DNA of 64,000 bases, from the NCBI GenBank assembly GCA_013329055.1, contig DUKY01000011.1:16096-80095 (forward strand), written 5' to 3'. How positions within the stretch are numbered: the stretch's first letter is position 1; each line of letters starts with the position of its first letter. This stretch comes from Nanobdellota archaeon. Its GTDB lineage: Archaea; Nanobdellota; Nanobdellia; Pacearchaeales; GW2011-AR1. The notes under the pieces were generated by a model. That model made no database searches, was not told the DNA's origin, and saw only the letters and a list, made by a program, of their open reading frames with translations. Shown piece after piece: positions 39,216 through 64,000 of this stretch. A program made the translations under genes and the position numbers.

Positions 39216-39233
39216 GCTTTGGAGAAACTAGTT
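39216..39233 (-). promoter_or_regulatory. 18-nt motif abutting a TATA-like box upstream of the HMA-permease gene
   Basis: GCTTTGGAGAAACTAGTT. In gene sense it reads AACTAGTTTCTCCAAAGC, followed by TCATATAAAG. 17 of 18 positions match the copA upstream motif. Confidence 0.4.
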
Positions 39234-39598
39234 TCATGAAAGACACCCGCTGGTTTCTTTCAAACTTCCTCAAATTGCGGAGCGGTGGTATCTTTATGAG
39301 CCTTTGTGGATACCACATAGAATGTGAACCCGTTGGTTCTTTTTGAATCTCCTCGAATACTTGAACGGTGGCATTTATTTGAGCCTTCGTGAATGCCATG
39401 TAGAATGTAACACCCGCTGGTTCCCTTCAACCCTCCTCGAAATCTGGAAGGGTGGCATCTCTAAACTCAAGCCCACACTCGTGTCAAGGGCTATCATGAA
39501 AACTCGTGTAAACTTTCGGAGCCTCCTGTGGATGCCACGTAGAATGTGACACCCGCTGGTTTCCTCGGAAAATTTGTAAAATTAAATTTTCTGGAATT

Positions 39599-39667
39599 CA
39601 GAGATTAAAAATCTCTGAAACTTCAGGAAACCTGAAGTCTTCAAAAGGCGATACTTTTGAAGTTTTT
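39599..39667 (+). other. three consecutive perfect hairpins followed by T5
   Basis: CAGAGAT-TAAAA-ATCTCTG (39599-39617), CTTCAGG-AAA-CCTGAAG (39621-39637) and CTTCAAAAG-GCGATA-CTTTTGAAG (39639-39662), then TTTTT. Confidence 0.5.
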
Positions 39668-41454: not shown

Positions 41455-41818
41455 TTTTAGTTTTATAATCTATTATTGCTTTTTTTAATGCTTTAGTTGC
41501 CATACTTGAACAATGCATTTTAATTGGGGGTAAACCTTTTAATGATTCTGCAAGATTTTCATAGGTTATATTATCTGCTTCTTCAAGAGTTTTTCCCATT
41601 GCAAGTTGAGTTACCATTGAAGAAGTTGCAATTGCTGCTGCACATCCAAAGGTTTTAAATTTAATATCTTCAATTTTATTATCTTTAACTTTGATATGAA
41701 CCTGCATTATATCTCCGCAGGTAGGATTACCAACTTTACCCACTCCGTCGGGATTTTTAAGTTCTCCAATATTTTTTGGATTCATAAATTCTTCCATTAC
41801 TTTTTTTGAATATTGCAT
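41429..41818 (-). CDS. iscU: Fe-S cluster assembly scaffold
   Basis: GNPTCGDIM, FGCAAAIATSS and HCSSMA, the three conserved Cys contexts of IscU/NifU. Confidence 0.9.
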   Translation of the reverse strand: MQYSKKVMEEFMNPKNIGELKNPDGVGKVGNPTCGDIMQVHIKVKDNKIEDIKFKTFGCAAAIATSSMVTQLAMGKTLEEADNITYENLAESLKGLPPIKMHCSSMATKALKKAIIDYKTKSGGKNNGK

Positions 41819-42035
41819 TTTTTGTTTGTTGTTTTTTATTTGTATTATTTAATTCGTTAATTCGTTTTAAAATGCAATGCTAGAAATCTTTTGATTTCTT
41901 TGTATTACATTTTTTGTTTGTTATTTTTGTCGTTGTTTGAGTTTATTTAATTCGTTTAAAATGCAATGCTAGAAAATTTTGAATTTTCTTTGTATTGCAT
42001 TTTTTGTTTGTTACTTTTATCGTTGTTTATTTAAT
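41811..42035. repeat. tandem repeat of about 90 bp (x2.5) that includes the iscU start codon region
   Basis: TATTGCATTTTTTGTTTGTT at 41811 and 41993, and TATTACATTTTTTGTTTGTT at 41903. Each unit carries an imperfect long hairpin (AATGCAATGCTAGAAA ... TTTCTTTGTATTGCATT). Confidence 0.8.
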
Positions 42036-42258: not shown

Positions 42259-43404
42259 TTAATTAATTAATGGACTGAGTCTCCTTAATTTAGTTACGAT
42301 TTTCGGTAATTCTTTTAAGAAGTAATCAACTTCTTCTTCAGTAGTATATTTACTTATACTTATTCTTAATGAACTATTTCCTTCTAAGGGTGTAAGTCCT
42401 ATTGCTTTTAAAACATGACTTGTCTTTAAAGTATTTGACATGCACGCTGATCCTGTTGAAGTTGCAATACCTAAATTTTCTAAGTATCCCCCGATTGCTT
42501 CTCCTTCAATATTCATAAATGAAATATTAATATTGTTGCATAATCGATTATTTCGTGGTCCACTTAATTTTGTATTTGAAATTTTTAATATTCCTTCAAT
42601 TAATTTGTCTCTCATTTCAGTCATTTGTTTTATATCTTTAGATTTTACAATTTCTACTGCTTTTGCAAAACCAATTATCCCTGCCGGATTTTCTGTTCCA
42701 CTTCGAATATTTCTTTCCTGACCTCCACCATGAAGTAAAGGTGTTAACATTATCCCATCTTTAATATATAATGCTCCTACTCCTTTAGGTCCATGAATTT
42801 TATGAGAGTTTAATGTCACCAAATCTAAATTTTGCTTCTTAACATTTAAATCAACTTTTGTATAACTCTGGCAGGCATCAGTATGAAATAAAACATTTTT
42901 TTCTTTACAAATTTTACCAATGGTTTCTAAATCTTGAATTGTTCCAATTTCATTATTTCCGTGTATTACTGACACAAGTATTGTCTTATCTGTAATCGAT
43001 TCTTTTAATTGATTCACGTCAATAAAACCTTCTTTATTTACATCCAGATAAGTTATTTTTGCTCCTTGTTTTTCTAACCAGCTACAAGTTTTTAAAATAC
43101 AATCATGTTCTATTTTTGTTGTGATTATATGATTTTTTTTTGGATAATTATTAAAAAATAATCCTTTTAATGCTAAGTTATTACTTTCTGTTCCTCCGGA
43201 AGTAAAAACAATTTCAGAAGTTTTAGCATTAATTGATTTTGCAATTATTTTTCTTGCTTCTTCAATTGCTTGTTTTGCTTCTTGACCTACAAAATGTTGT
43301 GAAGATGGATTCCCAAATTTTTCAGTTAAATAAGGCATCATAGCTTCAACTACTTTTTCATCGGTTTTTGTTGTAGCAGCGTTATCAAAATATACTAATT
43401 TCAT
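42259..43404 (-). CDS. iscS: cysteine desulfurase (IscS/NifS class)
   Basis: PLP-lysine context SHKIHGPKG, active-site Cys loop STGSACMS, N-terminal YFDNAATT. Confidence 0.92.
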   Translation of the reverse strand: MKLVYFDNAATTKTDEKVVEAMMPYLTEKFGNPSSQHFVGQEAKQAIEEARKIIAKSINAKTSEIVFTSGGTESNNLALKGLFFNNYPKKNHIITTKIEHDCILKTCSWLEKQGAKITYLDVNKEGFIDVNQLKESITDKTILVSVIHGNNEIGTIQDLETIGKICKEKNVLFHTDACQSYTKVDLNVKKQNLDLVTLNSHKIHGPKGVGALYIKDGIMLTPLLHGGGQERNIRSGTENPAGIIGFAKAVEIVKSKDIKQMTEMRDKLIEGILKISNTKLSGPRNNRLCNNINISFMNIEGEAIGGYLENLGIATSTGSACMSNTLKTSHVLKAIGLTPLEGNSSLRISISKYTTEEEVDYFLKELPKIVTKLRRLSPLIN

Positions 43405-43556
43405 ATTGTTTCCTCATTATTTTGAAATTTATATGCTTGAGAATTGGTAAAATTCTCATTGTATACTAATTTCATTTTTGTTTCCTCATTATTGAAATTT
43501 GTATGCTTGAGAATCTGTGATTCTCATTGTATACTAATTTCATATTGTTTCCTTTG
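43391..43556. repeat. tandem repeat of 68-71 bp (x2.4) containing the iscS promoter-like region, RBS and start codon
   Basis: TATACTAATTTCAT at 43391, 43462 and 43530. Each unit contains the palindrome GAGAAT-N-ATTCTC and a TATA-like GCATATAAAT (in gene sense). Confidence 0.85.
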
Positions 43557-47970: not shown

Positions 47971-48366
47971 TTACTCTAAAGGAAATATCTTTTCATCAAA
48001 ATAAATGTTCCCATCGTGTTCTTTTAATGAATTCACAATACATCTTTCAATTAATCCTGTATAAGAATATCTCCCGCCTAAATCCATAACAACATCTTTT
48101 CCTTTTGAATCCTTGCCAATATATAAATAAATAACATCTAAAGTACTATCTTTCCAAATTTCACCACTTTTATATTCTCCGTCTTTAACCCCAACAACAT
48201 CTTCATTAAAATTATAAATAACTCTTTTAGAATTAAAAATCTCACAAGGATTTAACCTAGGATAACTTAATGATTTTTTCGGGATAGAAAAATTATCATA
48301 ATAATCAGAACTAACACCCATAATTTTCAATAGATTACTAGCTTCCATTCGATTAGATTTAACCAT
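47971..48366 (-). CDS. hypothetical protein
   Basis: 131-aa ORF, no motif. Confidence 0.4.
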   Translation of the reverse strand: MVKSNRMEASNLLKIMGVSSDYYDNFSIPKKSLSYPRLNPCEIFNSKRVIYNFNEDVVGVKDGEYKSGEIWKDSTLDVIYLYIGKDSKGKDVVMDLGGRYSYTGLIERCIVNSLKEHDGNIYFDEKIFPLE

Positions 48367-48459
48367 GCACGTTTGATATTAAATAATCTTTTAAAGATTT
48401 ATATTTAAGAAAACATTATAAACATATATTCTTTTTTATATATTATGAAGTTCCAAATT

Positions 48460-48539
48460 CCATGTGGTATCCCAGGAGGCTCAGAAAAGATGCCACCCTT
48501 CAGTACTTTGAGGAGGGTCAAAGGGAACCAGGGGGTTCC
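48460..48539 (+). other. solo inverted copy of the 39.2-39.7 kb GC-rich repeat, directly upstream of a start codon
   Basis: The reverse complement matches the unit blocks (GAGCCTCCTGGGATACCACATG; CCCTCCTCAAAGTACTGAAGGGTGGCATC; CTGGTTCCC). Hairpins: ACCCTTC/GGAGGGT (48495-48518) and GGAACC/GGTTCC (48524-48539). Confidence 0.7.
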
Positions 48540-48545
48540 TTTTAA

Positions 48546-49481
48546 ATGAAGCACAATCTAAAGATAACATTCATTCTTTTAGCAATGTTTATCTTAACGC
48601 AATTTATAGGACTTTATGTTGTGAGTTATTATTCTCCTGTTAAAATTATAGAAGGAGAAATTCAAAATGTAACAGAACCAAAAATATTGCCCTTTGGAAT
48701 GGATTCACCGAAAGTAGAAAAAGAATCAGATTATTACAATTTTTTTTCTTCAATAATAATATCGTTTATAATAGCAATTTTATTATTAACATTTTTAACA
48801 AAATTTAAAGCAGAATTCATCCTCAAATTATGGTTTTTTATTGTAGTTATGATTGCACTGGGTATTTCATTAAAGACAATTCTTCCTGATATAAAATACA
48901 TAACATTAATTTCATTAATTATTGTTCTGCCTTTAGCATATATTAAGATTTATCAAAGAAATTTCTTAGTTCATAATTTAACTGAATTATTTATTTATCC
49001 GGGAATTGCAGCAGTTTTTGTCCCGATTCTAAACATTTATACAATCATTGCATTATTAATTGCAATTTCAATTTATGACATGTGGGCAGTTTGGCATTCA
49101 GGAATAATGCAAAAAATGGCAAAATATCAAATTAATGAATTAAAGATATTCTCAGGATTTTTTATACCATATGCATCAAAAAAAGTAAAGCTGCAAATTC
49201 AAAAGATAAAAGAATCAAAAAAGAAATTAGGTAAAAAAATCAAAGTTAATGTAGCAATTTTAGGAGGAGGGGATATAATTTTCCCAATAATTACATCAGG
49301 AGTGATGCTAAAAACATTAGGGTTTATTCCGGCAATATTTGTAATAATTGGAGCAACAATAGGATTAAGTTATTTATTCTTCTTCGCAAAAAAGAAAAAA
49401 TTCTATCCTGCAATGCCATTTATTACTGCAGGAATATTCTTAGGGATTATTATAGGATATTTATTTGATAAATTTATATAA
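48546..49481 (+). CDS. presenilin/signal-peptide-peptidase-type intramembrane aspartyl protease homolog
   Basis: Polytopic protein with YD (SIYDMWAV), GxGD (LGGGDIIFP) and a PAL-like YPAMPF, in the canonical order. Confidence 0.7.
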   Translation: MKHNLKITFILLAMFILTQFIGLYVVSYYSPVKIIEGEIQNVTEPKILPFGMDSPKVEKESDYYNFFSSIIISFIIAILLLTFLTKFKAEFILKLWFFIVVMIALGISLKTILPDIKYITLISLIIVLPLAYIKIYQRNFLVHNLTELFIYPGIAAVFVPILNIYTIIALLIAISIYDMWAVWHSGIMQKMAKYQINELKIFSGFFIPYASKKVKLQIQKIKESKKKLGKKIKVNVAILGGGDIIFPIITSGVMLKTLGFIPAIFVIIGATIGLSYLFFFAKKKKFYPAMPFITAGIFLGIIIGYLFDKFI

Positions 49482-49935
49482 TTTACCATTTATTACTGCA
49501 GGAATTCCAACAAAACTTTTAATATAAGGCGAGTGAAGACGAGCAGAAGTTTTGTGGCACCAAAATTTTTTATAAAAATTTTTAGTGTTCTTAGGAATTA
49601 TTATAGGATATTTATTTGATAAATTTATATAATTTACCATTTATTACTGCAGGAATACCGACAAAACTTTTAATATAAGGCGAGTGAAGACAAGCAGGAA
49701 GTTTTGTGGCACCAAAATTTTTTATAAAAATTTTTAGTGTTCTTAGGAATTATTATAGGATATTTATTTGATAAATTCATCTAACTTGCCATTTATTATT
49801 GCAGGAATTCCAACAAAACTTTTAATATAAGGCGAGTGAAGACGAGCAGAAGTTTTGTGGCACCAAAATTTTTTATAAAAATTTTTAGTGTTCTTAGGAA
49901 TTATTATAGGATATTTATTTGATAAATTCATCTAA
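49482..49935. repeat. three tandem units of 151-152 bp, each a copy of the last ~58 nt of ORF 48546-49481 interrupted by an 82-nt insert
   Basis: Units are 49482-49632, 49633-49784 and 49785-49935. The flanks match 49424-49481. The insert carries a CCAACAAAACTT/AAGTTTTGTGG stem and an AT-rich palindrome. Confidence 0.85.
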
Positions 49936-49978
49936 CAATAAAACAAAAGAATAAAAAGTACAAAAAGATATTTTTGTT

Positions 49979-50503
49979 ATGGATTTTGGAACACATTTAC
50001 TATCAGGAATTATTTTAGCTTATATCTTAACAGATTTTAATTCATGGATGTGGGTTTTAATTATTATTTTTGCATTATTACCTGATTTAATCGGAGAATT
50101 ATTTTATCAGATAGGAAGAATCACAAAAGGATATAAAATAAAACTTATCTATGACCAAGAAATTACATCTTCAAGTTTATATTTAAAAAATAGTAAATAT
50201 ATGATTCCTTATAACTTTTTACATTCGTTATTGGCAATAGGATTGCTATATATTTTTTCTTTGCCATTTGAATTAATAATTGCATATGCAATCCATATAG
50301 TTTTAGACCTCGTCTCTCATTCAAGAGATTCATGGGGAATTATGATCTTTTGGCCATTTAATAAAAAAAGATTTGGACCAAAAAAGAATTGGTGGGAATG
50401 GAAATTTTTAAAAAATACCAGCGTATTTTATTTTAATTTAATAACATATATAATAACAATTATTATCTTTTTAATACTCAAATTTTTTTTAAATAAATTT
50501 TAA
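49979..50503 (+). CDS. YdjM/DUF457-family membrane-bound metal-dependent hydrolase
   Basis: MDFGTHLLSGIIL N-terminus, HSLL and HIVLDLVSH His motifs, and about 5 TM segments. Confidence 0.65.
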   Translation: MDFGTHLLSGIILAYILTDFNSWMWVLIIIFALLPDLIGELFYQIGRITKGYKIKLIYDQEITSSSLYLKNSKYMIPYNFLHSLLAIGLLYIFSLPFELIIAYAIHIVLDLVSHSRDSWGIMIFWPFNKKRFGPKKNWWEWKFLKNTSVFYFNLITYIITIIIFLILKFFLNKF

Positions 50504-53788: not shown

Positions 53789-56700
53789 TTAATCTTTTCT
53801 TAAATAAATTAAATAATAAATTCCAAGAATCAACAAAATAGTAATTATTAAATTGTAAAATCCAAAAAATGGAAGCTGTATTTTTGCAGGGCAAGAAATA
53901 GCATTAGAACCCCCAACACAAACTCTGGATAACTTAAGAGGATCATAATAATAAAGCCCATTTTGTAAAAAGTAATTATCAATATTATTTGACGGACCAT
54001 CATTAAAATCTGCATATCCATTATCAGCTCCCCAAGACCAGATAGTTGTCCATGAATATTCTAAAAATCCATCCTCACAATTATCATTAGAACTTTCAGA
54101 ATAAGAACAAAGACCAATAATTGGAGTTGATCCACAATCTAAACCAGGTATAAATTCCCAAGTATATGAACAAGCATTCAAAATATCATCCCATACACAT
54201 TTGCACTGCATTAAATAATTACATAAACCAGACACTAAAATCTCATCACCACATCGTGTATTATTCCAAACTTCAGGATAAGCCTTAAACACTTTTTCAT
54301 TCACATTATTTTCTGCAGCATTGCAACCAAAATTATCACAACTATTACAAGAAAGTTTATTTTCATAATCTTTGCATTCTGCAGTTGAATCTTGAACTAA
54401 AACAGTTAATTTACCACTTTCATATCCATTAATTTTAAAATAAAATCCATCATAATCATTAGTTTTTGCATAATCTTCTTCGGTAATTGTCCATTCACCA
54501 ATAATAATTCCCCAACCAACATTGCTAAATGTTCCAGAGATAGCATTTGAACCTGTTCGAATTTCATCATCAAAAACAGAATCATCTTCAAAGATTTCAA
54601 AATTAAATGAACCATTTAATATCCCGGTATTATTAAGCACTAACTTAACTGTTTCACCGATATAGGCTTCAGTTATTCTTAATCCATTAGAGTCAACAAA
54701 ATAAGCTTCTGGTTGAAGAATGCAAACATTTGAACAACCATCGCCATTAATTAAATTTTTATCATCACATTCTTCTGGAGATTCCTTAATACCATTACCA
54801 CAATTATTAGAAGTATTAACTAAATCACAAGAAAGATTATTTGAAGAATAGGATGAAATATCTGTAGTTAATGTTGGAATAAATAATTCATTAGTATTTC
54901 CAGTGCCTAATTGTCCATCATCATTTAATCCCCAGCATAAAATACGGGTATCATTTAATCTCGTTCCACAAGAATAATAACTTCCTGCACTTATTTGAAT
55001 ATATGCAGATATATCTGAAGTCAATGTTGGTTTATTTAAATTTGTAAAACCTCCATTTCCAAGTTCTCCATCTCCACCGTCTCCCCAACATAAAACTCTT
55101 GAGTCATTTGCTCGAATTCCACAAGAATGATAATCTCCAGTAGCAATTTTTTTATAAGCCGAAGTATCTGTTGTTAAAGTTGGAATTAAATTATCTTCTG
55201 TTTCACCATCCCCTAATTGTCCTTCACCACCATATCCCCAGCATAACACTCTTGAATCATTTTTTCTAATTCCGCAAGTATGACCATCAGAATAAATAGA
55301 TTTATATTCAGATGTATCAGTTGTAACATTTGGATTTAATTGAACAATTAAAGTTCGCCCATCTCCTAATTGCCCTTCACCACCATATCCCCAGCATAAC
55401 ACTCTTGAATCATTTTTTCTGATTCCACACGTATAATAATCACCAGCACTAATACTTTTATAAGCAGAAGTATCATTAATTAATGTTGGATTTCCTAAAT
55501 TTGAAAATCCCCCATTTCCAAGTTGTCCAAAATTACTATATCCCCAACATAAAACTCTTGAGTCATTAGCACGAATACCACAAACATGATTATAATCACC
55601 AACACTTACAGCAAGATATGCAGAGGAATCAGTTGTTAATGTTGGATTCATAACATTATGCCCATCAATATCACCATCTCCTAAAGCACCATACTTTCCA
55701 TAACCCCAGCATAATACTCTTCTATCACTTGTTCGAATTCCACAAGTCTGATAACCTCTAGCACTTACACTAATATATCCAGAAATATCAGAAGTTGTAT
55801 ATGGACTAAGTCTATCAAGTATATTTTGTCCATCTCCAAGTTGTCCATATACTGAATTACCCCAGCATAAAACCCTTGAATCATTTTTTCTAATACCACA
55901 AGTATGAGACCATCCTGCTGAAATTTTAATGTCATCACAAGAAGCACTAAAATTAAAAACTTCAATAATACAACTAGCTGAACAGCCATCACCATTAACT
56001 AAATTTTTATCATCACATTGTTCAGAACCTTCTTTTATACCATCACCGCAAACAGCAATAGAAACAGAAGGACAAAAATTTTCTGAAACATTATATCCTG
56101 AAGAATCAATGGTTACATTAGGATTTAATGACATATGATCCATAATTATACCATCTCCTAATTGTCCATAAAGAGATCTTCCCCAACATAATACTCTTCC
56201 ATCAATAAATCGAGTAGCACAACTATGATATAATCCTACACTAACCTGAGTATATCCTGAAGCCTCACTTATTAATTTAGGATTTCCGGTATCTAATGTG
56301 CCACCATTTCCTAACACACCATATTCCCCTCTACCCCAACATAATATACGACTGTCATTTGCACGAATTCCACAAGTATGATACCTATAAGGACTAATTT
56401 GTTTATATTCAGATGTATCTGTTGTTAAAGTAGGATTTCGAGCAAGATGTTCAATAGTAATTCCATCCCCTAAAATTCCAAATATTCCCCTTCCCCAACA
56501 CAAAACACGACTATCATTTGCACGAATTCCGCAAGTAGAATAAAATCCGGCATTTACTTGTTTATACGCACTTTTATCTGTTGTAACATTTGGATTAGGA
56601 TTACTAATAAAACTATTTTGTCCATTTCCTAATTTTGCATTTTCCATATCTCCCCAACATAATACTCTTGAGTCATTTGCACGAATTCCACAAGTATAAA

Positions 56701-58540
56701 TCCATCCTGCACTTATACTTGAATAAGCTGAAGTATCTGTTGTTAATGTTGGTACTGCTTTAAAACCACCAACAGTTCCATTTCCTAACTGTCCATAATC
56801 ATTAAGCCCCCAACATAATACTCTGGAATCACTTGCTCTAATTCCACAAGTATGGTCTAATCCTGTACTTATACTTAAATAAGCTGAAGAATCAACAGTT
56901 AAATTTGGATTTCCTACATTATGATTTCCAAGAATTCCATCTCCTAATGCCCCAGAATTTCCAGACCCCCAACATAATACCCTTGAGTCATTTGCACGAA
57001 TTCCACAAGTATGAAATCCTCCTGTACTTATACTTAAATATGGTGAAACATCAGTTGTAAGATTTGGACTAAATGTTTTATGATTTGACGTAATACCATC
57101 CCCTAAAATACCATACCATCCATATCCCCAACATAAAACACGAGAATCATTTGCACGAATTCCACAAGTCTGATAACTTCCTGCTGAAAGTTTAAAATAA
57201 TCACAGGAATTAAAAACTTCATGCATACAAGTCGAAGAACAACCATCACTATTGATTAAATTCCCATCATCACATTCTTCACCACCAGTAATAATACCAT
57301 CACCGCAAGAATTAGAAATACAACTAAAACCACAAGTTTCATCAGTAGAATAACCAGAGGGGTCAATAATCAAATTCGGGGATAAAACTTTATGAACAAC
57401 AATTGACCCATCTCCCAATTGTCCATCATTGCCTTCTCCCCAACATAATACCTTTGAATCATTCGTTCGAATACCGCAAGAATGTTGTGCACCAGTTGTT
57501 AAAATAGTATATGAAAAAACATCAGTTGTTAATGTTGGAACAGATTTATCCGCAGTTCCACCATTACCTAATTGCCCTAAAAATCCATAACCCCAACATA
57601 ATACACGAGAATCACTTTTTCTAATTACACAATTATGTGAAAAACCTGAATTTAAATCTCGACTTGCCGATGAATCTTGAGTCAAAGTTGGATTTCCAAC
57701 ACTATGATCAGAAGCAATTCCATCACCTAATCTCCCGCTAATTCCTCTTCCCCAACATAATACACGAGAATCGCTTGTTCTAATACCACAAGTATGAAAT
57801 GCTCCAGTACTAATTTCACTATACATCGAAGAATCAGTAGTCAATATCGGATTTGGAACATTATGTACATTTGTGTTTCCATCACCCAATTTTCCATAAT
57901 CCCCTCTTCCCCAACATAATACTCTTGAATCATTTGCTCGAATACCACAAGTAAAATCACTAATAGTATCAAGACTTTTATACGCAGAAGTATCATTAAT
58001 TAAATTAGGAATTAATATAGAATGTATTAATACATTCCCATCCCCAAGCATGCCATATACACCTTCTCCCCAGCACAATACTCTTGAATCATTTGCTCGA
58101 ATACCACAAGTATGATACCCTCCTGCACTTATACTGCTATATGCTGATGAATCAGAGATTAATGTTGGAATTAAATTATCTCCTGTACTTCCATCACCTA
58201 ATTGCCCTAAATTCCCTTCACCCCAACAAAGAACTCTTGAATCATTTTTCCTAATACCACAAGTATGAAGATTACCAGAACTTACACTAACATATACCGA
58301 TAAATCTGTAGTTAATGTTGGAACTGAATTATAACCTGTTCCCCCATCACCTAATTGTCCAGAACTACCCCTCCCCCAACATAAAACCCTTGAGTCATTA
58401 GCTCGAATACCACAAGTATGATATTGACCTCCGGAAATCTTAGAATAATCACAAGAAATTAAAGTAGAACAAGAATCAGCACTAATAAATAAAATATTAA
58501 TCAATAACAAAAAAAATAAAATAAACAAACCTCTTTTCAT
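53789..58540 (-). CDS. giant surface protein: signal peptide, 3 x 7 RCC1-like blades separated by Cys-rich CxxGxxExxEECDDxN repeats, shared C-terminal module, C-terminal TM anchor
   Basis: 21 occurrences of the (R/K)(V/I)LCWG-x4-G-x-LG-x-G blade signature with HTCGIR strands. Three CG(D/N)GI...(E/Q)CDD(G/K)NL(I/V)N(G/S)DGCS..C repeats. C-terminal QLPFFGFYNLIITILLILGIYYLIYLRKD. Confidence 0.8.
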   Translation of the reverse strand: MKRGLFILFFLLLINILFISADSCSTLISCDYSKISGGQYHTCGIRANDSRVLCWGRGSSGQLGDGGTGYNSVPTLTTDLSVYVSVSSGNLHTCGIRKNDSRVLCWGEGNLGQLGDGSTGDNLIPTLISDSSAYSSISAGGYHTCGIRANDSRVLCWGEGVYGMLGDGNVLIHSILIPNLINDTSAYKSLDTISDFTCGIRANDSRVLCWGRGDYGKLGDGNTNVHNVPNPILTTDSSMYSEISTGAFHTCGIRTSDSRVLCWGRGISGRLGDGIASDHSVGNPTLTQDSSASRDLNSGFSHNCVIRKSDSRVLCWGYGFLGQLGNGGTADKSVPTLTTDVFSYTILTTGAQHSCGIRTNDSKVLCWGEGNDGQLGDGSIVVHKVLSPNLIIDPSGYSTDETCGFSCISNSCGDGIITGGEECDDGNLINSDGCSSTCMHEVFNSCDYFKLSAGSYQTCGIRANDSRVLCWGYGWYGILGDGITSNHKTFSPNLTTDVSPYLSISTGGFHTCGIRANDSRVLCWGSGNSGALGDGILGNHNVGNPNLTVDSSAYLSISTGLDHTCGIRASDSRVLCWGLNDYGQLGNGTVGGFKAVPTLTTDTSAYSSISAGWIYTCGIRANDSRVLCWGDMENAKLGNGQNSFISNPNPNVTTDKSAYKQVNAGFYSTCGIRANDSRVLCWGRGIFGILGDGITIEHLARNPTLTTDTSEYKQISPYRYHTCGIRANDSRILCWGRGEYGVLGNGGTLDTGNPKLISEASGYTQVSVGLYHSCATRFIDGRVLCWGRSLYGQLGDGIIMDHMSLNPNVTIDSSGYNVSENFCPSVSIAVCGDGIKEGSEQCDDKNLVNGDGCSASCIIEVFNFSASCDDIKISAGWSHTCGIRKNDSRVLCWGNSVYGQLGDGQNILDRLSPYTTSDISGYISVSARGYQTCGIRTSDRRVLCWGYGKYGALGDGDIDGHNVMNPTLTTDSSAYLAVSVGDYNHVCGIRANDSRVLCWGYSNFGQLGNGGFSNLGNPTLINDTSAYKSISAGDYYTCGIRKNDSRVLCWGYGGEGQLGDGRTLIVQLNPNVTTDTSEYKSIYSDGHTCGIRKNDSRVLCWGYGGEGQLGDGETEDNLIPTLTTDTSAYKKIATGDYHSCGIRANDSRVLCWGDGGDGELGNGGFTNLNKPTLTSDISAYIQISAGSYYSCGTRLNDTRILCWGLNDDGQLGTGNTNELFIPTLTTDISSYSSNNLSCDLVNTSNNCGNGIKESPEECDDKNLINGDGCSNVCILQPEAYFVDSNGLRITEAYIGETVKLVLNNTGILNGSFNFEIFEDDSVFDDEIRTGSNAISGTFSNVGWGIIIGEWTITEEDYAKTNDYDGFYFKINGYESGKLTVLVQDSTAECKDYENKLSCNSCDNFGCNAAENNVNEKVFKAYPEVWNNTRCGDEILVSGLCNYLMQCKCVWDDILNACSYTWEFIPGLDCGSTPIIGLCSYSESSNDNCEDGFLEYSWTTIWSWGADNGYADFNDGPSNNIDNYFLQNGLYYYDPLKLSRVCVGGSNAISCPAKIQLPFFGFYNLIITILLILGIYYLIYLRKD

Positions 58541-58575: not shown

Positions 58576-60408
58576 TTAATCTTTTCTTAGAGAAATTAAT
58601 GAATAAATTCCAACAATTAAGAATATGGTAATTATTAAATTGTAAAATCCAAAAAATGGAAGTTGTATTTCGGCAGGACAAGGGATAATGTTTGAACCAC
58701 CGACGCATCTTTGGGATAATTTAAATGGATCATAATAATAAAGTCCATTTTCTAAAATATAATCAGCGACTTCATCAGAAGGACCATTACTATATATTGC
58801 ATATCCATTATCAGTCCCCCAAGCCCAAGTAGTTGTCCAGGAATATTCTAAAAATCCATCGTTACAATTATCAACAGTACTCTCACCATATTTACAACTA
58901 CCAACTGTTGGAATACTGCTATCTGTATCACAATCAAGTCCTGGAGAAGAACTCCAAGTATAATCACATTTACTTGTTGAAGAATTCCAAATGCATTTGC
59001 ATAACATTAAATATGAACATGAAGGATCAGGACCTGCGATTTCATCGCCACATTTAGTATCATTCCAAACATCAGGAAATGCTTCAAAGACTTTTTCATT
59101 AACGCTATTTTCTGCAGCATCACAACCAATATAATCACAATCATTACAACTTACTTCAGATTCATAATTTGAACACCAAGGAGTAACATCTTGAACTAAA
59201 ATTTCTAATCTGTTACTTTCATATCCATTAATTTTAAAATAAAAATCATCATAATCACCTATTTCAGTAATGGAGTAATCTTGTTCAGTTATTGTCCATT
59301 CGCCAATAATAATTCCCCAACCGACATTACTAAATGTTCCGGGAATAGCATTTATACCTGTCCGAATTTCATCATCAAAAGCAGGATCTTCCTCAAGAAT
59401 TTCAAAACTAAATGAACCATTTAAAATTCCGGTATTATTGAATACTAACTTAACAGTTTCACCAATATGAGCTTCAGTTATTTTTAATCCATTAGAATCT
59501 AAAAAATAAGCTTCAGGTTGAAGAACACAAGCATTTGAACAACCATCGCCATTAAATAAATTTTTATCATCACATTCTTCATAGCTCTTAAACCAAATTC
59601 CATCCCCGCAATAACTACTCTTATAAGTTTCAATTTCACAAATATTTGAACAACCATCAAATGAAATTAAATTACCATCATCACAATTTTCAGAACCAAT
59701 AAACAAAATACTATCCCCACAATAACTACTTGAATAAGTTTCTATATTACAAGTCGATGAACAGCTATCAAAATTAATTAAATTTCCGTCATCACACTCT
59801 TCAGAACCGACAAATAAAATATTATCACCACAATAATCATCATCATAAGTTTCTGTTAAACAAGTAGAAGAACAACCATCAAAAGAAATTTTATTACCAT
59901 CATCACAAGTTTCAAAAGACGGAAAAATAACATTATCCCCGCAATAATTACTTGAATAAGTTTCAGTTTTACAAGTTGATGAACAACTATCACCGGATTT
60001 AGTATTACCGTCGTCACATTCTTCAGGACCTTCTTTTAAACTATCACCACAAACAGAACAAGATGTTGAACATCCAGCAATACTATTTGGACTACAAGCT
60101 TGTGTACAACCACTACCAGCACAATAAAAATAATCAGTATAAGTTGTATATGAACCACTTGAAACGCAATTACCTTCATAACCTCCAGGTGTACCACCCC
60201 CTTGAGATGGAGAACATCCCCAACAACTTACACAGGTTCCACCACAACAGCAATTACCACAAGATAAAATAACACAACAACCAGTATACCAACCTGTACC
60301 AGTAACAGTCATTTTTTCATAAGTACCATAATCAACACAAGTATCAGCATTAATAAATAAAACATTAATTAATAATAAACCAAAAATAAGAAACACACAT
60401 CTTTTCAT
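58576..60408 (-). CDS. surface protein paralog: Cys/Gly-rich N-domain, 5 Cys-rich repeats, shared C-terminal module and anchor
   Basis: Signal peptide, then repeated YCGD(N/S)ILF.GSE.CDDGNLI.FD.CS..C units. The C-terminal ~310 aa are collinear with the other three paralogs. Confidence 0.75.
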   Translation of the reverse strand: MKRCVFLIFGLLLINVLFINADTCVDYGTYEKMTVTGTGWYTGCCVILSCGNCCCGGTCVSCWGCSPSQGGGTPGGYEGNCVSSGSYTTYTDYFYCAGSGCTQACSPNSIAGCSTSCSVCGDSLKEGPEECDDGNTKSGDSCSSTCKTETYSSNYCGDNVIFPSFETCDDGNKISFDGCSSTCLTETYDDDYCGDNILFVGSEECDDGNLINFDSCSSTCNIETYSSSYCGDSILFIGSENCDDGNLISFDGCSNICEIETYKSSYCGDGIWFKSYEECDDKNLFNGDGCSNACVLQPEAYFLDSNGLKITEAHIGETVKLVFNNTGILNGSFSFEILEEDPAFDDEIRTGINAIPGTFSNVGWGIIIGEWTITEQDYSITEIGDYDDFYFKINGYESNRLEILVQDVTPWCSNYESEVSCNDCDYIGCDAAENSVNEKVFEAFPDVWNDTKCGDEIAGPDPSCSYLMLCKCIWNSSTSKCDYTWSSSPGLDCDTDSSIPTVGSCKYGESTVDNCNDGFLEYSWTTTWAWGTDNGYAIYSNGPSDEVADYILENGLYYYDPFKLSQRCVGGSNIIPCPAEIQLPFFGFYNLIITIFLIVGIYSLISLRKD

Positions 60409-60430
60409 AATATTTAATTAATTTTAAACC

Positions 60431-62287
60431 TTATAAAGATTTCTTTGGTTTTGTTAAATAAATTAGAGAATAAACTCCAAAAATTAAGAAGAAAGTAATT
60501 ATAAAATTATAAAATCCAAAGAATGGAAGCTGAACTTGTTCAGGACATAAAATAATATTTGCTCCACCAATACATTTCTCAGACAACTTAAATGGATCAT
60601 AATAATAAGTTGTTCCTTCTAAAGCATAATCATTGATATTGCTTGATGGACCATTATTATAATCTGTATAACCATTATCAGCTCCCCAAACCCAATTAGT
60701 TGTCCATGAATATTCCAAAAATCGATCTTCACAATCATCAAAAACATTTCGATTATATAAACAAATTCCGATTTTAGGATAAGAACTATTGCAATCAATT
60801 ACCGGATTTAAACCCCATGCATAATTACATTTATTTGCAAGATTATCCCAAATGCAATTGCATGATAATTGGTAAATGCAAGAAGTAAGATTATCTTCTA
60901 TGTAATCCCAGCAACGAGTATTATTCCAAAGATCAGGATTTTCTTGAAAGATATCTTCATTAAGACTATTTTCTGCAGCACTGCAACCAACATAATTGCA
61001 ATTATTGCAACTGCTTTCATCAACATAATTACTACACCAAGGGGTAATATCGGGAATAAGAATTTTTAAAAAATCACTCTCATATGAACCAATAACAAAA
61101 TAAAAATTATTATAATCTCCGACTTCAGTTTTTTTATAATCCTCTTCAGTAATTGTCCATTCTCCGATTATTTTACCAAAACCTTCATTATAATATATTC
61201 CAAAGATTGCATTGTCTCCTGTTCGAATTTCATCATTCAAAAATAAATCTTTTTCATAAACTTCAAAAGAATAATCATCAGTCAAATGGTATATCCCTAA
61301 ATTATCTCCGAGATTATCAAAAACTAACCTTATAGTCTCACCAATATGAGCCTGATTTATTCTTTCCCCATTAAGATTTTCCCAATAAACTTTAGTCTCT
61401 AAATCACATATACTTGAACAACCATCACCTGAGAGAGTATTACCATCATCACATCTTTCTTCACCCATAAATAAAATATTATCCCCGCACATATCTAAAG
61501 AATAAACTTCCTTTTTGCAGGAAAAACAACCATCAGAAGAATCATTATTGCCATCATCACACTTTTCAGGAACTTCAATGATTCCATTCCCGCAAACAGA
61601 ACAAGGCAATTCACCAATGTCTTGTGCAATTTGTTTGTAAATATCAATTAATCCATTATTTTCTCCATAGTAAACTTTACCTAATCCACAATTTGCAATA
61701 CTTGTCAAAGTATCCATATCAGCATTACTTCCAAAACCAACTGCATAAACAATTATACCATAATTGTTATATGCATCGCATGCAGATTTAATTGCATCTT
61801 CTGTAGCACTGCCAGTCCCTTGTTCTTCGCATTTAACATTTGCTTTTCCATCACTCATAATAACTATCGACTTAACTCCTTCACCTTCAAATTCTAAAAG
61901 TGTTTTATTAACAGCTTGATTTATACCGCAACAAATGCATGTTCCTTCACCAAGATACCACTCATCAATTTTATTCTTTAATGAAATACTATCGTAAGAT
62001 AATGGATAAGAGTTTACATCATCAACTTCCCGAGAATATCCAATTAAACCAACTTTATTTCCTGAAAAATTTAAAAGAATATCTATAAAGACCTTATTTG
62101 CATCTCTGGCAATATCAATCATCTTTCCACCTTGTTCAGAACAATTTGCGACACATTGATTCATGCTTCCAGATAAATCTGTTAAAGAAAAAACACCAAT
62201 ATTCTCGCATGCTTGTGCAAAAATTAAATTAAATTGAAAGATAAAACTAATTAATAAGATAAAAATAATATACATACACCTCTTCAT
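60431..62287 (-). CDS. surface protein paralog: vWA domain, Cys-rich repeats, shared C-terminal module and anchor
   Basis: Signal peptide, MIDAS DLSGSM, VIMSDGKAN, two Cys-rich repeats and the shared C-terminal module. Confidence 0.75.
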   Translation of the reverse strand: MKRCMYIIFILLISFIFQFNLIFAQACENIGVFSLTDLSGSMNQCVANCSEQGGKMIDIARDANKVFIDILLNFSGNKVGLIGYSREVDDVNSYPLSYDSISLKNKIDEWYLGEGTCICCGINQAVNKTLLEFEGEGVKSIVIMSDGKANVKCEEQGTGSATEDAIKSACDAYNNYGIIVYAVGFGSNADMDTLTSIANCGLGKVYYGENNGLIDIYKQIAQDIGELPCSVCGNGIIEVPEKCDDGNNDSSDGCFSCKKEVYSLDMCGDNILFMGEERCDDGNTLSGDGCSSICDLETKVYWENLNGERINQAHIGETIRLVFDNLGDNLGIYHLTDDYSFEVYEKDLFLNDEIRTGDNAIFGIYYNEGFGKIIGEWTITEEDYKKTEVGDYNNFYFVIGSYESDFLKILIPDITPWCSNYVDESSCNNCNYVGCSAAENSLNEDIFQENPDLWNNTRCWDYIEDNLTSCIYQLSCNCIWDNLANKCNYAWGLNPVIDCNSSYPKIGICLYNRNVFDDCEDRFLEYSWTTNWVWGADNGYTDYNNGPSSNINDYALEGTTYYYDPFKLSEKCIGGANIILCPEQVQLPFFGFYNFIITFFLIFGVYSLIYLTKPKKSL

Positions 62288-62330
62288 AATAATTAATTGA
62301 TTTTAATGCTTATAAAACTTATTCTAATTT

Positions 62331-64000
62331 CTAATTTTTTCTAAGAACAAAATAAACACCAGCAATCAATAAGATAGTAATAATTAGATTATAAAATCCA
62401 AAGAATGGAAGCTGAACTTTTGCAGGACACAAAATTGTATTAGAACCTCCAACACAATTTCGAGATAATTTAAGAGGATCATAAAAATATGTATTGCTAC
62501 CATTAATACTCATGTTAAAATAATCATTAATATCATTTGACGGACCATCATTAAAATCTGCATATCCATTATCAGTTCCCCAAGTCCAAATAGTTGTCCA
62601 AGAATATCCTAAAAATCCATCATCACAAGTATCTGCAGTGCTTTCAGAATAAGTACAAGCACCAATATCCGGAGTACAGTTTAAAGGAACCAATTCCCAA
62701 GAATATGAACAAGAATTCAAAATATCATCCCATACACATTTACATTGTATTTCATAAATACATGAAGAATTAGAATCAATAATTTCATCACCACACCTAT
62801 AATCCCCCCAAACTTCAGGATAAGCTTCAAAAACTTTTTTATTCACACTTTTTTCAGCAGCTATACAACCAGAATTATCACAACTATTACAAGAAAATTC
62901 ATCAACATAATATTTGCATTCTTCAGTTAAATCCCTTGTTAAAATTGTTAAATTATTACTTTTATATCCATTAATAGTAAAATAAAAACCATCATAATCA
63001 CCAACATCGGTCTTAGCATAATCTTCTTCTGTGATAGTCCAATTTCCAAGAACATTTCCAAAACCTACGTTACTAAATACTCCCGAGATACCCCCTGCAC
63101 CAGTTCGAATATTATCATCTGGATTCAAAAAAGAATCTTTTTCAAAAATTTCAAAATTAAATGGACCAGTTAAATTTAATCCGGAATTATTTAAAATTAA
63201 TTTAACTGTATCACCAACATGAGCCTGTGTAATTCTTACCCCATTAGAATTTAACCAATAAACTTCTGGTTGAAGAATACAAACATTTGAACAGCCATCG
63301 CCATTAACTAAATTTTTATCATCGCATTCTTCTGGAGATTCCTTAATACCATTACCGCAAATAGTCTCATTCTTGCAAATCGAAGAGCAACCGTCACCAT
63401 TAATTGAATTGTTATCATCACATTCTTCGCCACTTTCAAGAATACCATTACCACAAACATTGCAAGACATATTAAGCATAATATCCTGCGAGATTTGCTT
63501 ATACACATCAACTAAATCAAAATCCCCAGAGTAATATCTTCCATGACCGCAATCAGCCATTTTCTGTAAAGTTTTTTTACCAGCATCAGCTCCAAAACCT
63601 ACAGTATGCACAACAATACCATAATCTTCATATGCATCACATGAAGCTTGAATTGCAGCATTTTCCGAACTTAAACTAGGATATTTATCAAGACACTGTA
63701 TATTTGCTTCTCCGTCACTCATTACCACCAGAACTTTATAAGCAGAAGAATCTGATTCATTAAACATTTTATCTATTGCATTAAGAACCCCACAACAAAT
63801 GCAAGTTCTACCATAAGAAGCCCAAGAATCAATTGTATTAATCAAAGAAACTGAATTATTTGATAATTCATGATAACCAGTATCATTTGAAACAGTTGCA
63901 TAAGTAACTAAACCAACTTCATTACCGGAAACTTTAAAAAGATTTTCAATAAATGCCTTATTTGCTCTTTGTGCAAGATCCATTCTTTGATAATAAGTTC
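62331..64000 (-). CDS. surface protein paralog (vWA type), 5'-truncated by the window edge
   Basis: The reading frame stays open upstream of the track Met to position 64000. The sequence aligns from about residue 55 of ORF 60431-62287. VVMSDGEAN, two Cys-rich repeats and the shared C-terminal module are present. Confidence 0.75.
   Translation of the reverse strand, partial: TYYQRMDLAQRANKAFIENLFKVSGNEVGLVTYATVSNDTGYHELSNNSVSLINTIDSWASYGRTCICCGVLNAIDKMFNESDSSAYKVLVVMSDGEANIQCLDKYPSLSSENAAIQASCDAYEDYGIVVHTVGFGADAGKKTLQKMADCGHGRYYSGDFDLVDVYKQISQDIMLNMSCNVCGNGILESGEECDDNNSINGDGCSSICKNETICGNGIKESPEECDDKNLVNGDGCSNVCILQPEVYWLNSNGVRITQAHVGDTVKLILNNSGLNLTGPFNFEIFEKDSFLNPDDNIRTGAGGISGVFSNVGFGNVLGNWTITEEDYAKTDVGDYDGFYFTINGYKSNNLTILTRDLTEECKYYVDEFSCNSCDNSGCIAAEKSVNKKVFEAYPEVWGDYRCGDEIIDSNSSCIYEIQCKCVWDDILNSCSYSWELVPLNCTPDIGACTYSESTADTCDDGFLGYSWTTIWTWGTDNGYADFNDGPSNDINDYFNMSINGSNTYFYDPLKLSRNCVGGSNTILCPAKVQLPFFGFYNLIITILLIAGVYFVLRKN

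What the first reader, a model, noticed from the sequence alone, without database searches (positions are those of the whole stretch)
49424..49935. Three tandem pseudo-3'-ends of the presenilin-homolog gene, each split by a structured 82-nt insert
Downstream of the stop codon (49479-49481), three units of 151-152 bp repeat the last ~58 nt of the gene (...PFITAGI FLGIIIGYLFDKFI*).

In every unit, an 82-nt segment replaces a single A between GCAGGAAT and TTCTTAGG. In unit 1 this segment is at 49506-49587.

The insert has:
- a stem of 8 bp plus 3 bp, separated by a 1-nt bulge (CCAACAAAACTT / AAGTTTTGTGG), around a GC-rich loop (GGCGAGTGAAGACGAGCAG)
- an AT-rich palindrome (CACCAAAATTTTT-TATA-AAAAATTTTTAGTG)

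Units differ at a few positions, so they are not a trivial assembly stutter.

Possible explanations:
- a small RNA gene or miniature element that inserted into a duplicated gene tail and was then amplified
- a reservoir of alternative 3' cassettes
- intron-like sequences
Basis: seen in the sequence. Interest (0 to 1): 0.65.

Follow-up and report, generated by a model that had tools for sequence, protein, structure and literature searches.

The report
Repeated pseudo-tails behind archaeal protease gene
Just after a membrane-protease gene of a tiny groundwater archaeon lie three head-to-tail copies of the gene's last 22 codons, each split by the same 81-base hairpin-forming insert; the array is real but confined to one species and is most likely a recombination-driven minisatellite, not an intron, a known RNA or a mobile element.

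Summary
After the stop codon (49479-49481) of a presenilin/SPP-family gene (48546-49481, +) lie three units of 151, 152 and 151 nt (49482-49935). Each unit holds a copy of the gene's last 22 codons, split by an 81-82-nt insert with two hairpins. More than 20 independent contigs reproduce the array.

It occurs in only one species-level Pacearchaeota/Nanoarchaeia lineage, in two strains about 94% identical. Eighty-three more distant relatives lack it. The insert was found nowhere else: not in the window, in about 600 kb of related loci, in a JGI metagenome scan, or in viral and phage collections. It matches no Rfam family, and its junctions cannot form a bulge-helix-bulge motif.

Array variants with 1, 3 and 5 units are exactly the reciprocal products of unequal crossover between identical inserts. 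Other tandem arrays in the same window also overlap gene ends and differ in copy number between the strains.

Best reading (about 0.5): a duplicated gene tail took one hairpin insertion, and recombination then amplified and reshuffled it. The array now supplies the first oligo-T terminator tracts after the gene.

Three things remain unexplained: where the insert came from, why its stems are conserved, and why the silent tails differ mostly at synonymous sites. Interest is modest.

The parts
48546..49481 (+). Presenilin/signal-peptide-peptidase family gene (311 aa); the array follows its stop codon (49479-49481)
   Evidence: ORF. Pfam PF06550, E 6.7e-15. 3859 homologues, named presenilin-family intramembrane aspartyl protease in Pacearchaeota and Nanoarchaeota.
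49414..49481 (+). Functional gene tail that the units copy: segment A 49414-49435, single A at 49436, segment B 49437-49481 (FLGIIIGYLFDKFI*)
   Evidence: Alignment of the tail with the units. Blastn-short with A and B matches only the tail and the three units.
49482..49632 (+). Unit 1 (151 nt): TT, A' 49484-49505, insert i1 49506-49587, B' 49588-49632
49633..49784 (+). Unit 2 (152 nt): TT, A' 49635-49656, insert i2 49657-49739 (four differences from i1), B' 49740-49784
49785..49935 (+). Unit 3 (151 nt): CT, A' 49787-49808 (ACT to ATT), insert i1 49809-49890, B' 49891-49935
49507..49557 (+). Hairpin 1 of the insert in unit 1: arms CCAACAAAACTT (49507-49518) and AAGTTTTGTGG (49547-49557) around a loop with the GC-rich core GGCGAGTGAAGACGAGCAG. 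The 2-3 nt on the 3' side of the loop vary between copies.
   Evidence: RNA fold -16.2 kcal/mol, z = -2.6. Alignment of six insert variants. The A-to-G change in unit 2 keeps the pair as G-U.
49558..49587 (+). Hairpin 2 of the insert in unit 1: AT-rich palindrome CACCAAAATTTTT-TAT-AAAAATTTTTAGTG. It holds the first oligo-T tracts after the stop codon (T6 at 49566-49571, T5 at 49579-49583).
   Evidence: The sister strain has one base fewer in each arm, so the hairpin is kept.
49979..50503 (+). Downstream gene (YdjM family, PF04307). The array fills most of the 497-nt gap between it and the protease gene.

Best explanation
The array is a lineage-specific minisatellite in the 3' flank of the protease gene. 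Homologous recombination built it and keeps reshaping it.

**Step 1 (inferred).** The last ~68 nt of the gene plus 2 nt were duplicated in tandem. Two other arrays in this window arose the same way at gene 5' ends.

**Step 2 (inferred; source unknown).** One 81-nt sequence that forms two hairpins entered the non-functional copy. It landed at the centre of the imperfect palindrome AGGAAT-A-TTCTTA.

**Step 3 (supported by the unit mosaics).** Unequal crossover between units expanded the array to about three units before the two known strains split. It still produces shorter and longer arrays.

Crossovers within segment B move tail ends between the functional position and the silent positions. 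This explains why the silent tails stay in frame and differ mostly at synonymous sites.

**Present effect (inferred).** Archaeal RNA polymerase is known to terminate at oligo-T tracts. The AT hairpin of the first insert carries the first T6 and T5 tracts after the stop codon, so it probably acts as the gene's terminator and 3'-UTR structure. No further function needs to be assumed.
For: **Tandem structure.** The units lie head to tail with period 151 and 95% identity.

**Recombination footprints.**
- The window and L011 carry [i1 B2][i2 B3][i1 B3].
- Eight contigs carry one unit made of the unit 1 5' part, i1 and B3.
- L109 carries five units: u1, u2, a u3/u1 hybrid, u2, u3.
- The one-unit and five-unit forms are the two reciprocal products of a single crossover between the identical i1 inserts of units 1 and 3.
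- L101 and L104 show the middle unit converted to i1.

**Same behaviour elsewhere in the genome.** Arrays at 43391-43553 (period 70) and 41811-42035 (period 90) duplicate a promoter plus the first 8-14 nt of a gene. Those two arrays and the array at 39243-39460 all differ in length between strains W and X.

**Young and local.**
- The array is present in two strains about 94% identical.
- It is absent from 78 of 80 GTDB species representatives (55-72% protein identity) and from 5 contigs carrying 73-77% relatives.
- The two exceptions are L014, which is sister strain X, and L041, which has a different, uninterrupted pseudo-tail.

**The insert is unique to this locus**.

**No other machinery fits.**
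- No Rfam family matches.
- No bulge-helix-bulge geometry forms.
- No family other than housekeeping ones is on record for any gene within 5 kb on either side (precomputed Pfam hits).
Against: **Origin of the insert.** It is not explained. The insert resembles nothing in the flanks or elsewhere.

**Variation within the insert is not random.** There are 0 disruptive changes in 46 stem positions and 8 in 37 loop positions (Fisher P = 0.001). A one-base loss in each arm keeps hairpin 2 intact. This hints at selection on the fold. The copies are few and related, so the test is weak.

**The silent tails look like coding sequence.** None has a frameshift or a stop. Nine of 14 variable sites are synonymous against 22% expected (P = 7e-4). 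Among changes private to silent tails, 5 of 8 are synonymous (P = 0.015). Under this model that pattern requires frequent exchange with the functional tail.

**Stable copy number.** Both strains keep three units in their best assemblies, while the other arrays changed.

**Possible site-specific process.** An independent displaced tail in a distant relative (L041) starts at the same codon. That could point to a site-specific event rather than random duplication.

**Assembly caveat.** Units 1 and 3 share about 130 identical bases, so short-read assemblers could also have produced the 1-unit and 5-unit forms.
Confidence: 0.5

Rival explanations
1. Each unit is a small non-coding RNA gene. The last codons of the preceding tail (AAA TTT ATA TAA) form a BRE/TATA-like box. 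Transcription would start 23-26 nt downstream, at the first bases of the insert, and stop at the T6/T5 tracts of hairpin 2. The product would be an ~80-nt two-hairpin RNA with an exposed GC-rich loop. Amplifying the unit would raise its dosage.
For: TTTATATA lies 25 nt upstream of the insert start in units 1 and 2. This matches the archaeal TATA-to-start spacing (sequence; the spacing rule is established knowledge).

The insert folds better than shuffled versions (z = -2.6).

Variation sits in the loops and the stems are kept.

The loop is 63% G+C in a sequence that is otherwise very AT-rich, as structured RNAs in AT-rich genomes usually are.
Against: The TATA-like box is not kept. Unit 3 of this strain is preceded by TTCATCTAA, and unit 1 of the sister strain by GTTCATATAA.

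No Rfam family matches, and the insert has no box C (RUGAUGA) or box D (CUGA).

No homologue exists in any relative, which is unusual for a functional RNA.

Nothing in the window matches the loop or its complement with up to 3 mismatches in 19 nt.

Insert divergence between the strains, about 5%, equals the genome background.
Confidence: 0.17
2. The units are footprints of a site-specific, non-autonomous insertion module that targets the conserved ...MPFITAGI... end of the gene. A 151-nt cassette [B'-stop-spacer-A'-insert] enters at AGGAATA^TTCTTAGG, or a 151-nt circle recombines within B. The gene thereby receives a replacement tail, and the old tail is pushed downstream, now carrying the insert. 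Repeated events, or tandem integration, build the array.
For: This geometry reproduces the observed order exactly: intact gene first, interrupted tails after it (reasoned).

The target lies at the centre of an imperfect palindrome, as recombinase core sites do.

The silent tails look like formerly functional alleles, with a synonymous bias.

The last silent tail of each strain encodes that strain's own tail peptide.

An independent displaced tail in L041 (63% identical protein) begins at the same codon.

Gene 3' ends are known integration targets in archaea, for example tRNA genes. I recall that casposons target the 3' end of aEF-2; I did not check this.
Against: No integrase, transposase or element body lies between the copies or within 5 kb on either side.

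A 151-nt element has no known mobilisation mechanism.

The insert and the cassette occur at no other locus and in no viral contig.

The unit mosaics are fully explained by ordinary unequal crossover.

The L041 spacer is unrelated in sequence, and its pseudo-tail is not interrupted.
Confidence: 0.15
3. The silent tails are a reservoir of alternative C-terminal cassettes. Recombination in segment B swaps them into the gene, changing the extracellular C-terminal residues of the protease. The insert keeps the silent copies untranslatable.
For: Crossovers in B necessarily transfer silent tail ends into the gene (mosaics).

In the sister strain the silent tails encode ...IIIGYIFNKFI while the gene encodes ...IITGYLFTKFI.

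All silent tails remain in frame, and their changes are biased towards synonymous ones.
Against: In this strain all three silent B segments encode exactly the gene's own peptide, so there is nothing to vary.

Only 2-3 residues differ anywhere.

Transfer by deletion goes one way and uses up the cassettes.

I know of no reason why the last transmembrane helix of an intramembrane protease should need variation.
Confidence: 0.08
4. The insert is an archaeal bulge-helix-bulge intron, or another self-removing RNA, within spare 3' exons.
For: Removing exactly 81 nt (82 in unit 2) restores the reading frame and the tail peptide in every unit.
Against: At that junction only 2 of 4 central-helix pairs form, and the outer helices have 1 and 0 pairs, in all three units. 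No alternative pair of sites gives a full helix-bulge-helix-bulge-helix motif.

The units lie downstream of the gene's own stop codon, and the gene's tail has no splice site.

No ribozyme or intron family matches in Rfam, even at E up to 10.
Confidence: 0.02

Closest known systems
Prokaryotic minisatellites or VNTR-type tandem duplications in intergenic DNA, expanded and contracted by slippage or unequal crossover
   Same: The units are head-to-tail copies of about 150 nt. Copy number differs between assemblies and strains (1, 2, 3 and 5). Hybrid units sit exactly where unequal crossover predicts. Sister arrays in the same genome behave the same way.
   Different: The unit is not anonymous DNA. 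It is a copy of the end of a coding sequence, split by a structured insert. The silent copies stay in frame and show a synonymous bias.
Displaced partial gene 3' ends left by integrating elements (att-site footprints at tRNA and some protein genes in archaea and bacteria)
   Same: An intact gene is followed by partial copies of its own 3' end. These copies differ by substitutions that look like allelic, formerly coding variation. A second lineage (L041) has a displaced tail that starts at the same codon.
   Different: There is no element body and no integrase. Only 81 nt of foreign sequence is present, and it lies inside the displaced tail, not between the tail copies.
Archaeal bulge-helix-bulge introns (tRNA, rRNA; from memory, also rare mRNA cases such as cbf5)
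   Same: A short structured insert whose exact removal would restore an open reading frame.
   Different: The junctions cannot form the motif. The location is after a stop codon. No splicing is needed for the gene to be intact.
Hairpin-ended miniature derivatives of IS200/IS605 elements (palindrome-associated transposable elements)
   Same: The insert has no terminal inverted repeats and no target-site duplication, it has a hairpin near each end, and it is inserted at a defined short sequence.
   Different: It occurs at a single locus only. The two hairpins are not alike. No TnpA or TnpB gene is seen nearby.
Silent-cassette systems for gene conversion (Neisseria pilE/pilS, Borrelia vlsE)
   Same: Promoter-less partial copies of one end of an expressed gene lie next to it and can recombine with it.
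   Different: The cassettes are nearly identical in peptide sequence. No dedicated recombination signal is apparent.

Membership tests
Tandem-duplication minisatellite | Head-to-tail copies of one unit with a constant period | tested here: met
   TRF: period 151, 3.3 copies, 95% matches. Alignment of the units.
Tandem-duplication minisatellite | Copy-number variation and recombinant (hybrid) units between individuals | tested here: inconclusive
   Arrays of 1, 2, 3 and 5 units carry exactly the hybrids expected from crossover between units 1 and 3. However, about 130 identical bases between these units mean short-read assemblers could produce the same forms. Long reads are needed.
Bulge-helix-bulge intron | Two 3-nt bulges separated by a 4-bp helix at the two splice sites, with at least one flanking helix | tested here: not met
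   At the frame-restoring junction: 2 of 4 central pairs, flanking helices of 1 and 0 bp, in all three units.
Bulge-helix-bulge intron | Lies inside a functional transcript whose product requires its removal | tested here: not met
   All units lie after the stop codon at 49479-49481. The gene's own tail is uninterrupted.
Miniature inverted-repeat or IS-derived mobile element | Several dispersed copies in the genome | tested here: not met
   Copies occur only inside the array: in the window, in ~600 kb of related loci, and in the JGI scan, where all 5 matching stretches are at this locus. Caveat: that collection is incomplete, because it missed the known JGI contigs L002 and L004.
Miniature inverted-repeat or IS-derived mobile element | Terminal inverted repeats and a target-site duplication | tested here: not met
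   Read from the sequence. The ends CCAACAAAACTTTT and (reverse complement) CACTAAAAATTTTT match at 9 of 14 positions. No bases are duplicated at the junctions.
Known RNA family (Rfam 15) | Covariance-model score at or above the family's gathering threshold | tested here: not met
   0 matches in the window at gathering thresholds. Only noise appears at E up to 10 in 48300-50100 (best over the units: rivX, 19 bits against a threshold of 100).
Box C/D small RNA | Box C (RUGAUGA) near the 5' end and box D (CUGA) near the 3' end, next to a terminal stem | tested here: not met
   Neither box is present in the insert. The nearest strings are GUGAAGA and CAGA, only 4 nt apart inside the loop (sequence).
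Integrative-element attachment-site footprint | Partial copy of the target gene's 3' end displaced downstream of an intact gene | tested here: met
   An independent case in L041.
Integrative-element attachment-site footprint | Element body with an integrase or recombinase, or its remnant, between the two att copies | tested here: not met
   Only 2 nt separate the stop codon from A'. The only foreign DNA is the 81-nt insert inside the displaced tail. The genes within 5 kb on either side show only housekeeping families.
Diversity-generating retroelement (template/variable repeat pair) | Differences between the copies confined to adenines of the template copy; reverse transcriptase nearby | tested here: not met
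   The differences include T/C, A/T and G/A changes in both directions. No reverse-transcriptase family is on record for the genes within 5 kb on either side.
Silent-cassette gene-conversion system | Silent copies that encode diverse variants of the expressed segment | tested here: not met
   In this strain all silent B segments encode the same peptide as the gene. In the sister strain one type of silent tail differs at 3 residues.

The most novel reading that the evidence does not exclude
The 151-nt unit could be a self-contained tail-swapping module. It would be a tiny cassette, mobilised in trans or acting as a recombining circle, that inserts at a palindromic site in the last helix of the protease gene. 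It would bring its own replacement tail, promoter-like box and structured RNA, so the gene stays intact while the old tail is archived downstream. The displaced tail in a distant relative (L041), which begins at the same codon, would be a second trace of the same process.
Probability: 0.1. Interest if true: 0.6.

Novelty: new member of a known kind. Interest (0 to 1): 0.3.

Why it matters
As it stands, the finding is a clean example of how fast intergenic DNA turns over in small DPANN genomes. Tandem arrays that overlap gene ends arise, trap small structured inserts, and are reshuffled by unequal crossover within a single species.

Two practical points follow.
- The array breaks or collapses short-read assemblies. 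Contigs end in it, scaffolds carry N gaps in it, and one-unit collapses appear.
- It leads gene callers to predict spurious 55- and 59-aa antisense proteins.

The finding would matter more if the insert proved to be an expressed RNA, or if the unit proved to be a site-specific insertion module. Either would be a new kind of small element. The present evidence does not favour either reading.

Tried and rejected
**Rfam.** At gathering thresholds on the whole window and at E up to 10 on the locus, nothing matched.

**tRNA and tmRNA scan.** No genes in the window.

**Bulge-helix-bulge scan** of every pair of sites within 25 nt of the junctions. There was no full motif, and the frame-restoring junction fails.

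**Searches for the insert elsewhere.**
- Window probes with up to 3 mismatches and blastn-short gave only AT-rich noise.
- Covariance model R1 over 599 kb hit only the array.
- The JGI metagenome pattern scan hit only this locus.
- Viral contigs gave 0 hits with three patterns, including the uninterrupted gene tail as a possible attP.
- Phage genomes gave only 26-nt chance matches.

**Peptide search** with the antisense ORF of the array, to find diverged arrays. It returned two clusters, both from the same lineage.

**Pseudo-tails in relatives.** An 11-mer scan and a P[FY][IL][STA]xG motif scan of 80 loci with 3-kb flanks found only L014 (the sister strain) and L041. Three closer relatives (73-77% identity) have none.

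**Origin of the insert from the flanks.** Local alignment scored no better than shuffles (16.0 against a mean of 15.6).

**Diversity-generating retroelement.** Rejected, because the differences are not specific to adenines.

**Translational bypass** between the GGA ATT codons on either side of the insert. It would delete four residues and would lie after a stop codon, so I rejected it by inspection.

**Literature search** for DPANN intergenic tandem repeats. Nothing relevant came up. A second query was malformed.
Full report
**What is there**

The window comes from an AT-rich DPANN archaeon. Close homologues of its genes are annotated as Pacearchaeota, Nanoarchaeota or Candidatus Nanoarchaeia, and most contigs come from groundwater metagenomes.

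The ORF at 48546-49481 (+) encodes a 311-aa presenilin/signal-peptide-peptidase family protein (PF06550). Directly after its stop codon TRF reports one array, 49437-49935, with period 151, 3.3 copies and 95% matches. Reading and aligning the sequence gives three units: 49482-49632, 49633-49784 and 49785-49935.

Each unit has four parts:
- two spacer bases;
- a copy of segment A of the gene tail (T[A/G]CCATTTATTA[C/T]TGCAGGAAT);
- an insert of 82 or 83 nt, counted from the base that replaces the gene's A at 49436;
- a copy of segment B (TTCTTAGG...TAA, 45 nt).

The duplicated part is 22 codons rather than about 58 nt. In unit 2 the A is retained, so the event can equally be read as an 81-82-nt insertion after that base.

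**Is it real?**

Yes.
- Two insert probes match only the three units, with 0 matches expected by chance.
- The identical protein is encoded on at least 9 contigs, and the array's antisense ORF on at least 17. These come from NCBI, JGI and ENA assemblies made with different assemblers.
- All of them show the same stop-to-unit junction.
- Contig L011 repeats the window's three units base for base.
- Several contigs end inside the array or carry N gaps there, as expected when short reads meet a repeat.

**Anatomy of the insert**

The insert folds into two hairpins (-16.2 kcal/mol, z = -2.6).
- Hairpin 1 has 11 pairs with a one-base bulge (CCAACAAAACTT / AAGTTTTGTGG). Its 28-nt loop contains the GC-rich core GGCGAGTGAAGACGAGCAG.
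- Hairpin 2 is an AT palindrome that ends at the last base of the insert. It carries T6 (49566-49571) and T5 (49579-49583). These are the first oligo-T tracts after the stop codon.

I found six insert variants in two strains.
- Their differences lie in the first base, in 2-3 hypervariable bases on the 3' side of the hairpin 1 loop, in one loop G/A, and in the loop of hairpin 2.
- The only stem changes keep the pairing: an A-U to G-U change, and the loss of one base from each arm of hairpin 2.
- Counted crudely, that is 0 disruptive changes in 46 stem positions against 8 in 37 loop positions (P = 0.001).
- The copies are few and related, so this is a hint of constraint, not proof.

**What it is not**

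- It matches no Rfam family, at gathering thresholds or at E up to 10.
- It has no box C or box D.
- It is not a bulge-helix-bulge intron. At the only junction that restores the frame, 2 of 4 central-helix pairs form and the flanking helices have 1 and 0 pairs. No other pair of sites gives a complete motif. The units also sit after the stop codon of an intact gene.
- It does not behave like a mobile element. It has no terminal inverted repeats and no target-site duplication.
- It has no second copy in the 64-kb window, and none in 599 kb of window plus related loci searched with a covariance model.
- In the JGI scan, all 5 matching stretches lie at this same locus. That collection is incomplete, because it missed two JGI contigs known to carry the insert.
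- It has no match in viral contigs or phage genomes.
- The uninterrupted gene tail is also absent from viral contigs.
- The insert resembles neither flank.

**Distribution**

A scan of GTDB species representatives returned 80 loci that encode relatives.
- Only L014, a sister strain with 97% protein identity, has the array.
- 78 others (55-72% identity) have no second tail within 3 kb, by 11-mer and peptide-motif scans.
- Three closer relatives (73-77%) also lack it.

The two array-bearing strains, here called W (the window) and X, are about 94% identical in DNA. Both carry two unit types, one with A and one with T at the first insert base. In both, the last unit is the T type. So an array of at least two units predates their split. 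The best assemblies of both strains have three units (L012 and L010 are contiguous in a 257-kb contig).

**Recombination footprints**

- W is [i1 B2][i2 B3][i1 B3].
- Eight contigs have a single unit made of the 5' part of unit 1, i1 and B3.
- L109 has five units: u1, u2, a hybrid of the unit 3 5' part with the unit 1 3' part, u2, u3.
- The one-unit and five-unit forms are the two reciprocal products of one unequal crossover between the identical i1 inserts of units 1 and 3.
- L101 and L104 have i1 in the middle unit, which looks like gene conversion.

Units 1 and 3 share about 130 identical bases, so short-read assemblers could make the same products. Real copy-number polymorphism is therefore likely but not proven.

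**The same behaviour elsewhere in the window**

- Two other arrays duplicate a promoter plus the first 8-14 nt of a gene. They lie at 43391-43553 (period 70) and 41811-42035 (period 90).
- A third array repeats a GC-rich element (39243-39460).
- All three differ in length between W and X.

Tandem duplication across gene boundaries is thus a general habit of this genome.

**The silent tails look like coding sequence**

If the insert is removed in silico, every silent tail is an intact reading frame.
- Of 14 variable sites among the seven tails, 9 are synonymous against 22% expected (P = 7e-4).
- Of the 8 changes private to silent tails, 5 are synonymous (P = 0.015).
- In X, the last silent tail encodes the same peptide as the X gene (IITGYLFTKFI) and differs from it at three synonymous sites. 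The other silent tails of X encode IIIGYIFNKFI.

Unequal crossover within B explains this without any function. It repeatedly moves tail ends between the expressed position and the silent positions, so selection samples the silent copies. The same pattern is also what a tail-replacing insertion module or a cassette reservoir would leave behind. I keep both as rivals.

**A parallel in a distant relative**

In L041 (Pacearchaeota, 63% protein identity), the stop codon is followed by about 100 nt of GC-richer spacer. Then comes an uninterrupted but diverged second tail, MPYITAGIFAGMLVGKLLVG*. It starts at the same codon as segment A here. The spacer is unrelated to the insert. Two independent events with the same left boundary hint at a preferred site. 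One coincidence is weak evidence.

**Most likely mechanism**

1. A tandem duplication of the tail (inferred).
2. One insertion of an 81-nt hairpin-rich sequence of unknown source into the dispensable copy, at the centre of the imperfect palindrome AGGAAT-A-TTCTTA (inferred).
3. Expansion to about three units, followed by continuing unequal crossover and conversion (supported by the mosaics).
4. As a by-product, the first insert now supplies the oligo-T tracts where archaeal RNA polymerase would terminate the protease transcript (inferred from general knowledge of archaeal termination).

I put this at about 0.5. The rivals are:
- an array of small RNA genes that uses the TATA-like last codons of the preceding tail as promoter (0.17; the TATA-like box is not conserved in front of every unit);
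- footprints of a site-specific miniature insertion module (0.15; no machinery and no other copies);
- a cassette reservoir (0.08; the cassettes barely differ);
- an intron (0.02).

**Verdict**

This is an unusual-looking but probably ordinary product of rapid intergenic turnover, confined to one species. Interest is modest unless RNA data or long reads show otherwise.

Noticed in passing
window 48459-48549 (+); window 39232-39543 (-); also L029 2519-2606, L031 2914-3003, L043 123-214, L017 2921-3006, L044 2912-3004, L050 642-737, L090 421-512: A GC-rich three-hairpin element of ~85-90 nt that is not in Rfam. One copy ends on the start codon of the protease gene in this window, and the same is true in six distant relatives. 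It also lies upstream of aCPSF1 in L090. Three or four partly decayed tandem copies lie upstream of the gene that starts at 39185 (-) (MKKIFKINGMHC...; I did not search this protein against families). The consensus fold has 22 pairs, 5 with compensatory changes, and a GGAGG in the first loop. It is a candidate leader or cis-regulatory RNA, and may deserve more attention than the assigned finding.
   Followed up: partly
window 43391-43553 (-) and 41811-42035 (-): Two tandem arrays (periods 70 and 90) duplicate a promoter region, a hairpin and the first 14 or 8 nt of the downstream gene. The pseudo-starts are ATGAAATTAGTATA and ATGCAATA. By the look of their first residues the genes are NifS-like and IscU-like; I did not search them against families. 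Both arrays differ in copy number between strains W and X.
   Followed up: partly
L041 3946-4110 (JAAOYJ010000041.1, Pacearchaeota DPANNHV_H1.bin.34): An independent displaced tail. After the stop codon come ~100 nt of GC-richer spacer ending in a small terminator-like hairpin, then an uninterrupted, diverged second copy of the last 20 codons. This copy starts at the same codon as segment A of the window's units. A 122-aa ORF on the opposite strand ends inside it.
   Followed up: partly
L014 2506-2563; L012 10056-10113; L008 1981-2038 (sister strain X): In strain X, the leader element upstream of the protease gene carries a 57-58-nt insertion that forms two hairpins (TTCAAAAG...CTTTTGAA and CAGAGAATTT...AAATTCTCTG). 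A copy of its first hairpin lies at window 39640-39664 (-), next to the tandem array of the same element.
   Followed up: partly
window 49461-49640 (-) and 49764-49931 (-): Antisense ORFs of 59 and 55 aa run through the units. Public annotations call them as genes (clusters P0121 and P0122, the latter on at least 17 contigs). They exist only in this array and are almost certainly spurious.
   Followed up: yes
window 53789-58540 (-): A 1583-aa secreted or membrane-anchored protein with many RCC1/WD40_RLD-type repeats and DUF4215 modules. It accounts for the 153-159-nt tandem repeats that TRF reports at 55023-58423. Related repeat proteins follow at 58576-63983.
   Followed up: no
proteins P0002, P0003, P0010 (homologues of window 48546-49481): Three database variants of the same protease (84-94% identity by the tool's measure) carry internal in-frame deletions of 11 to ~65 residues across transmembrane segments. 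They may be misassemblies or real deletion alleles.
   Followed up: no
window 1-64000: ARAGORN finds no tRNA gene anywhere in the 64 kb.
   Followed up: no
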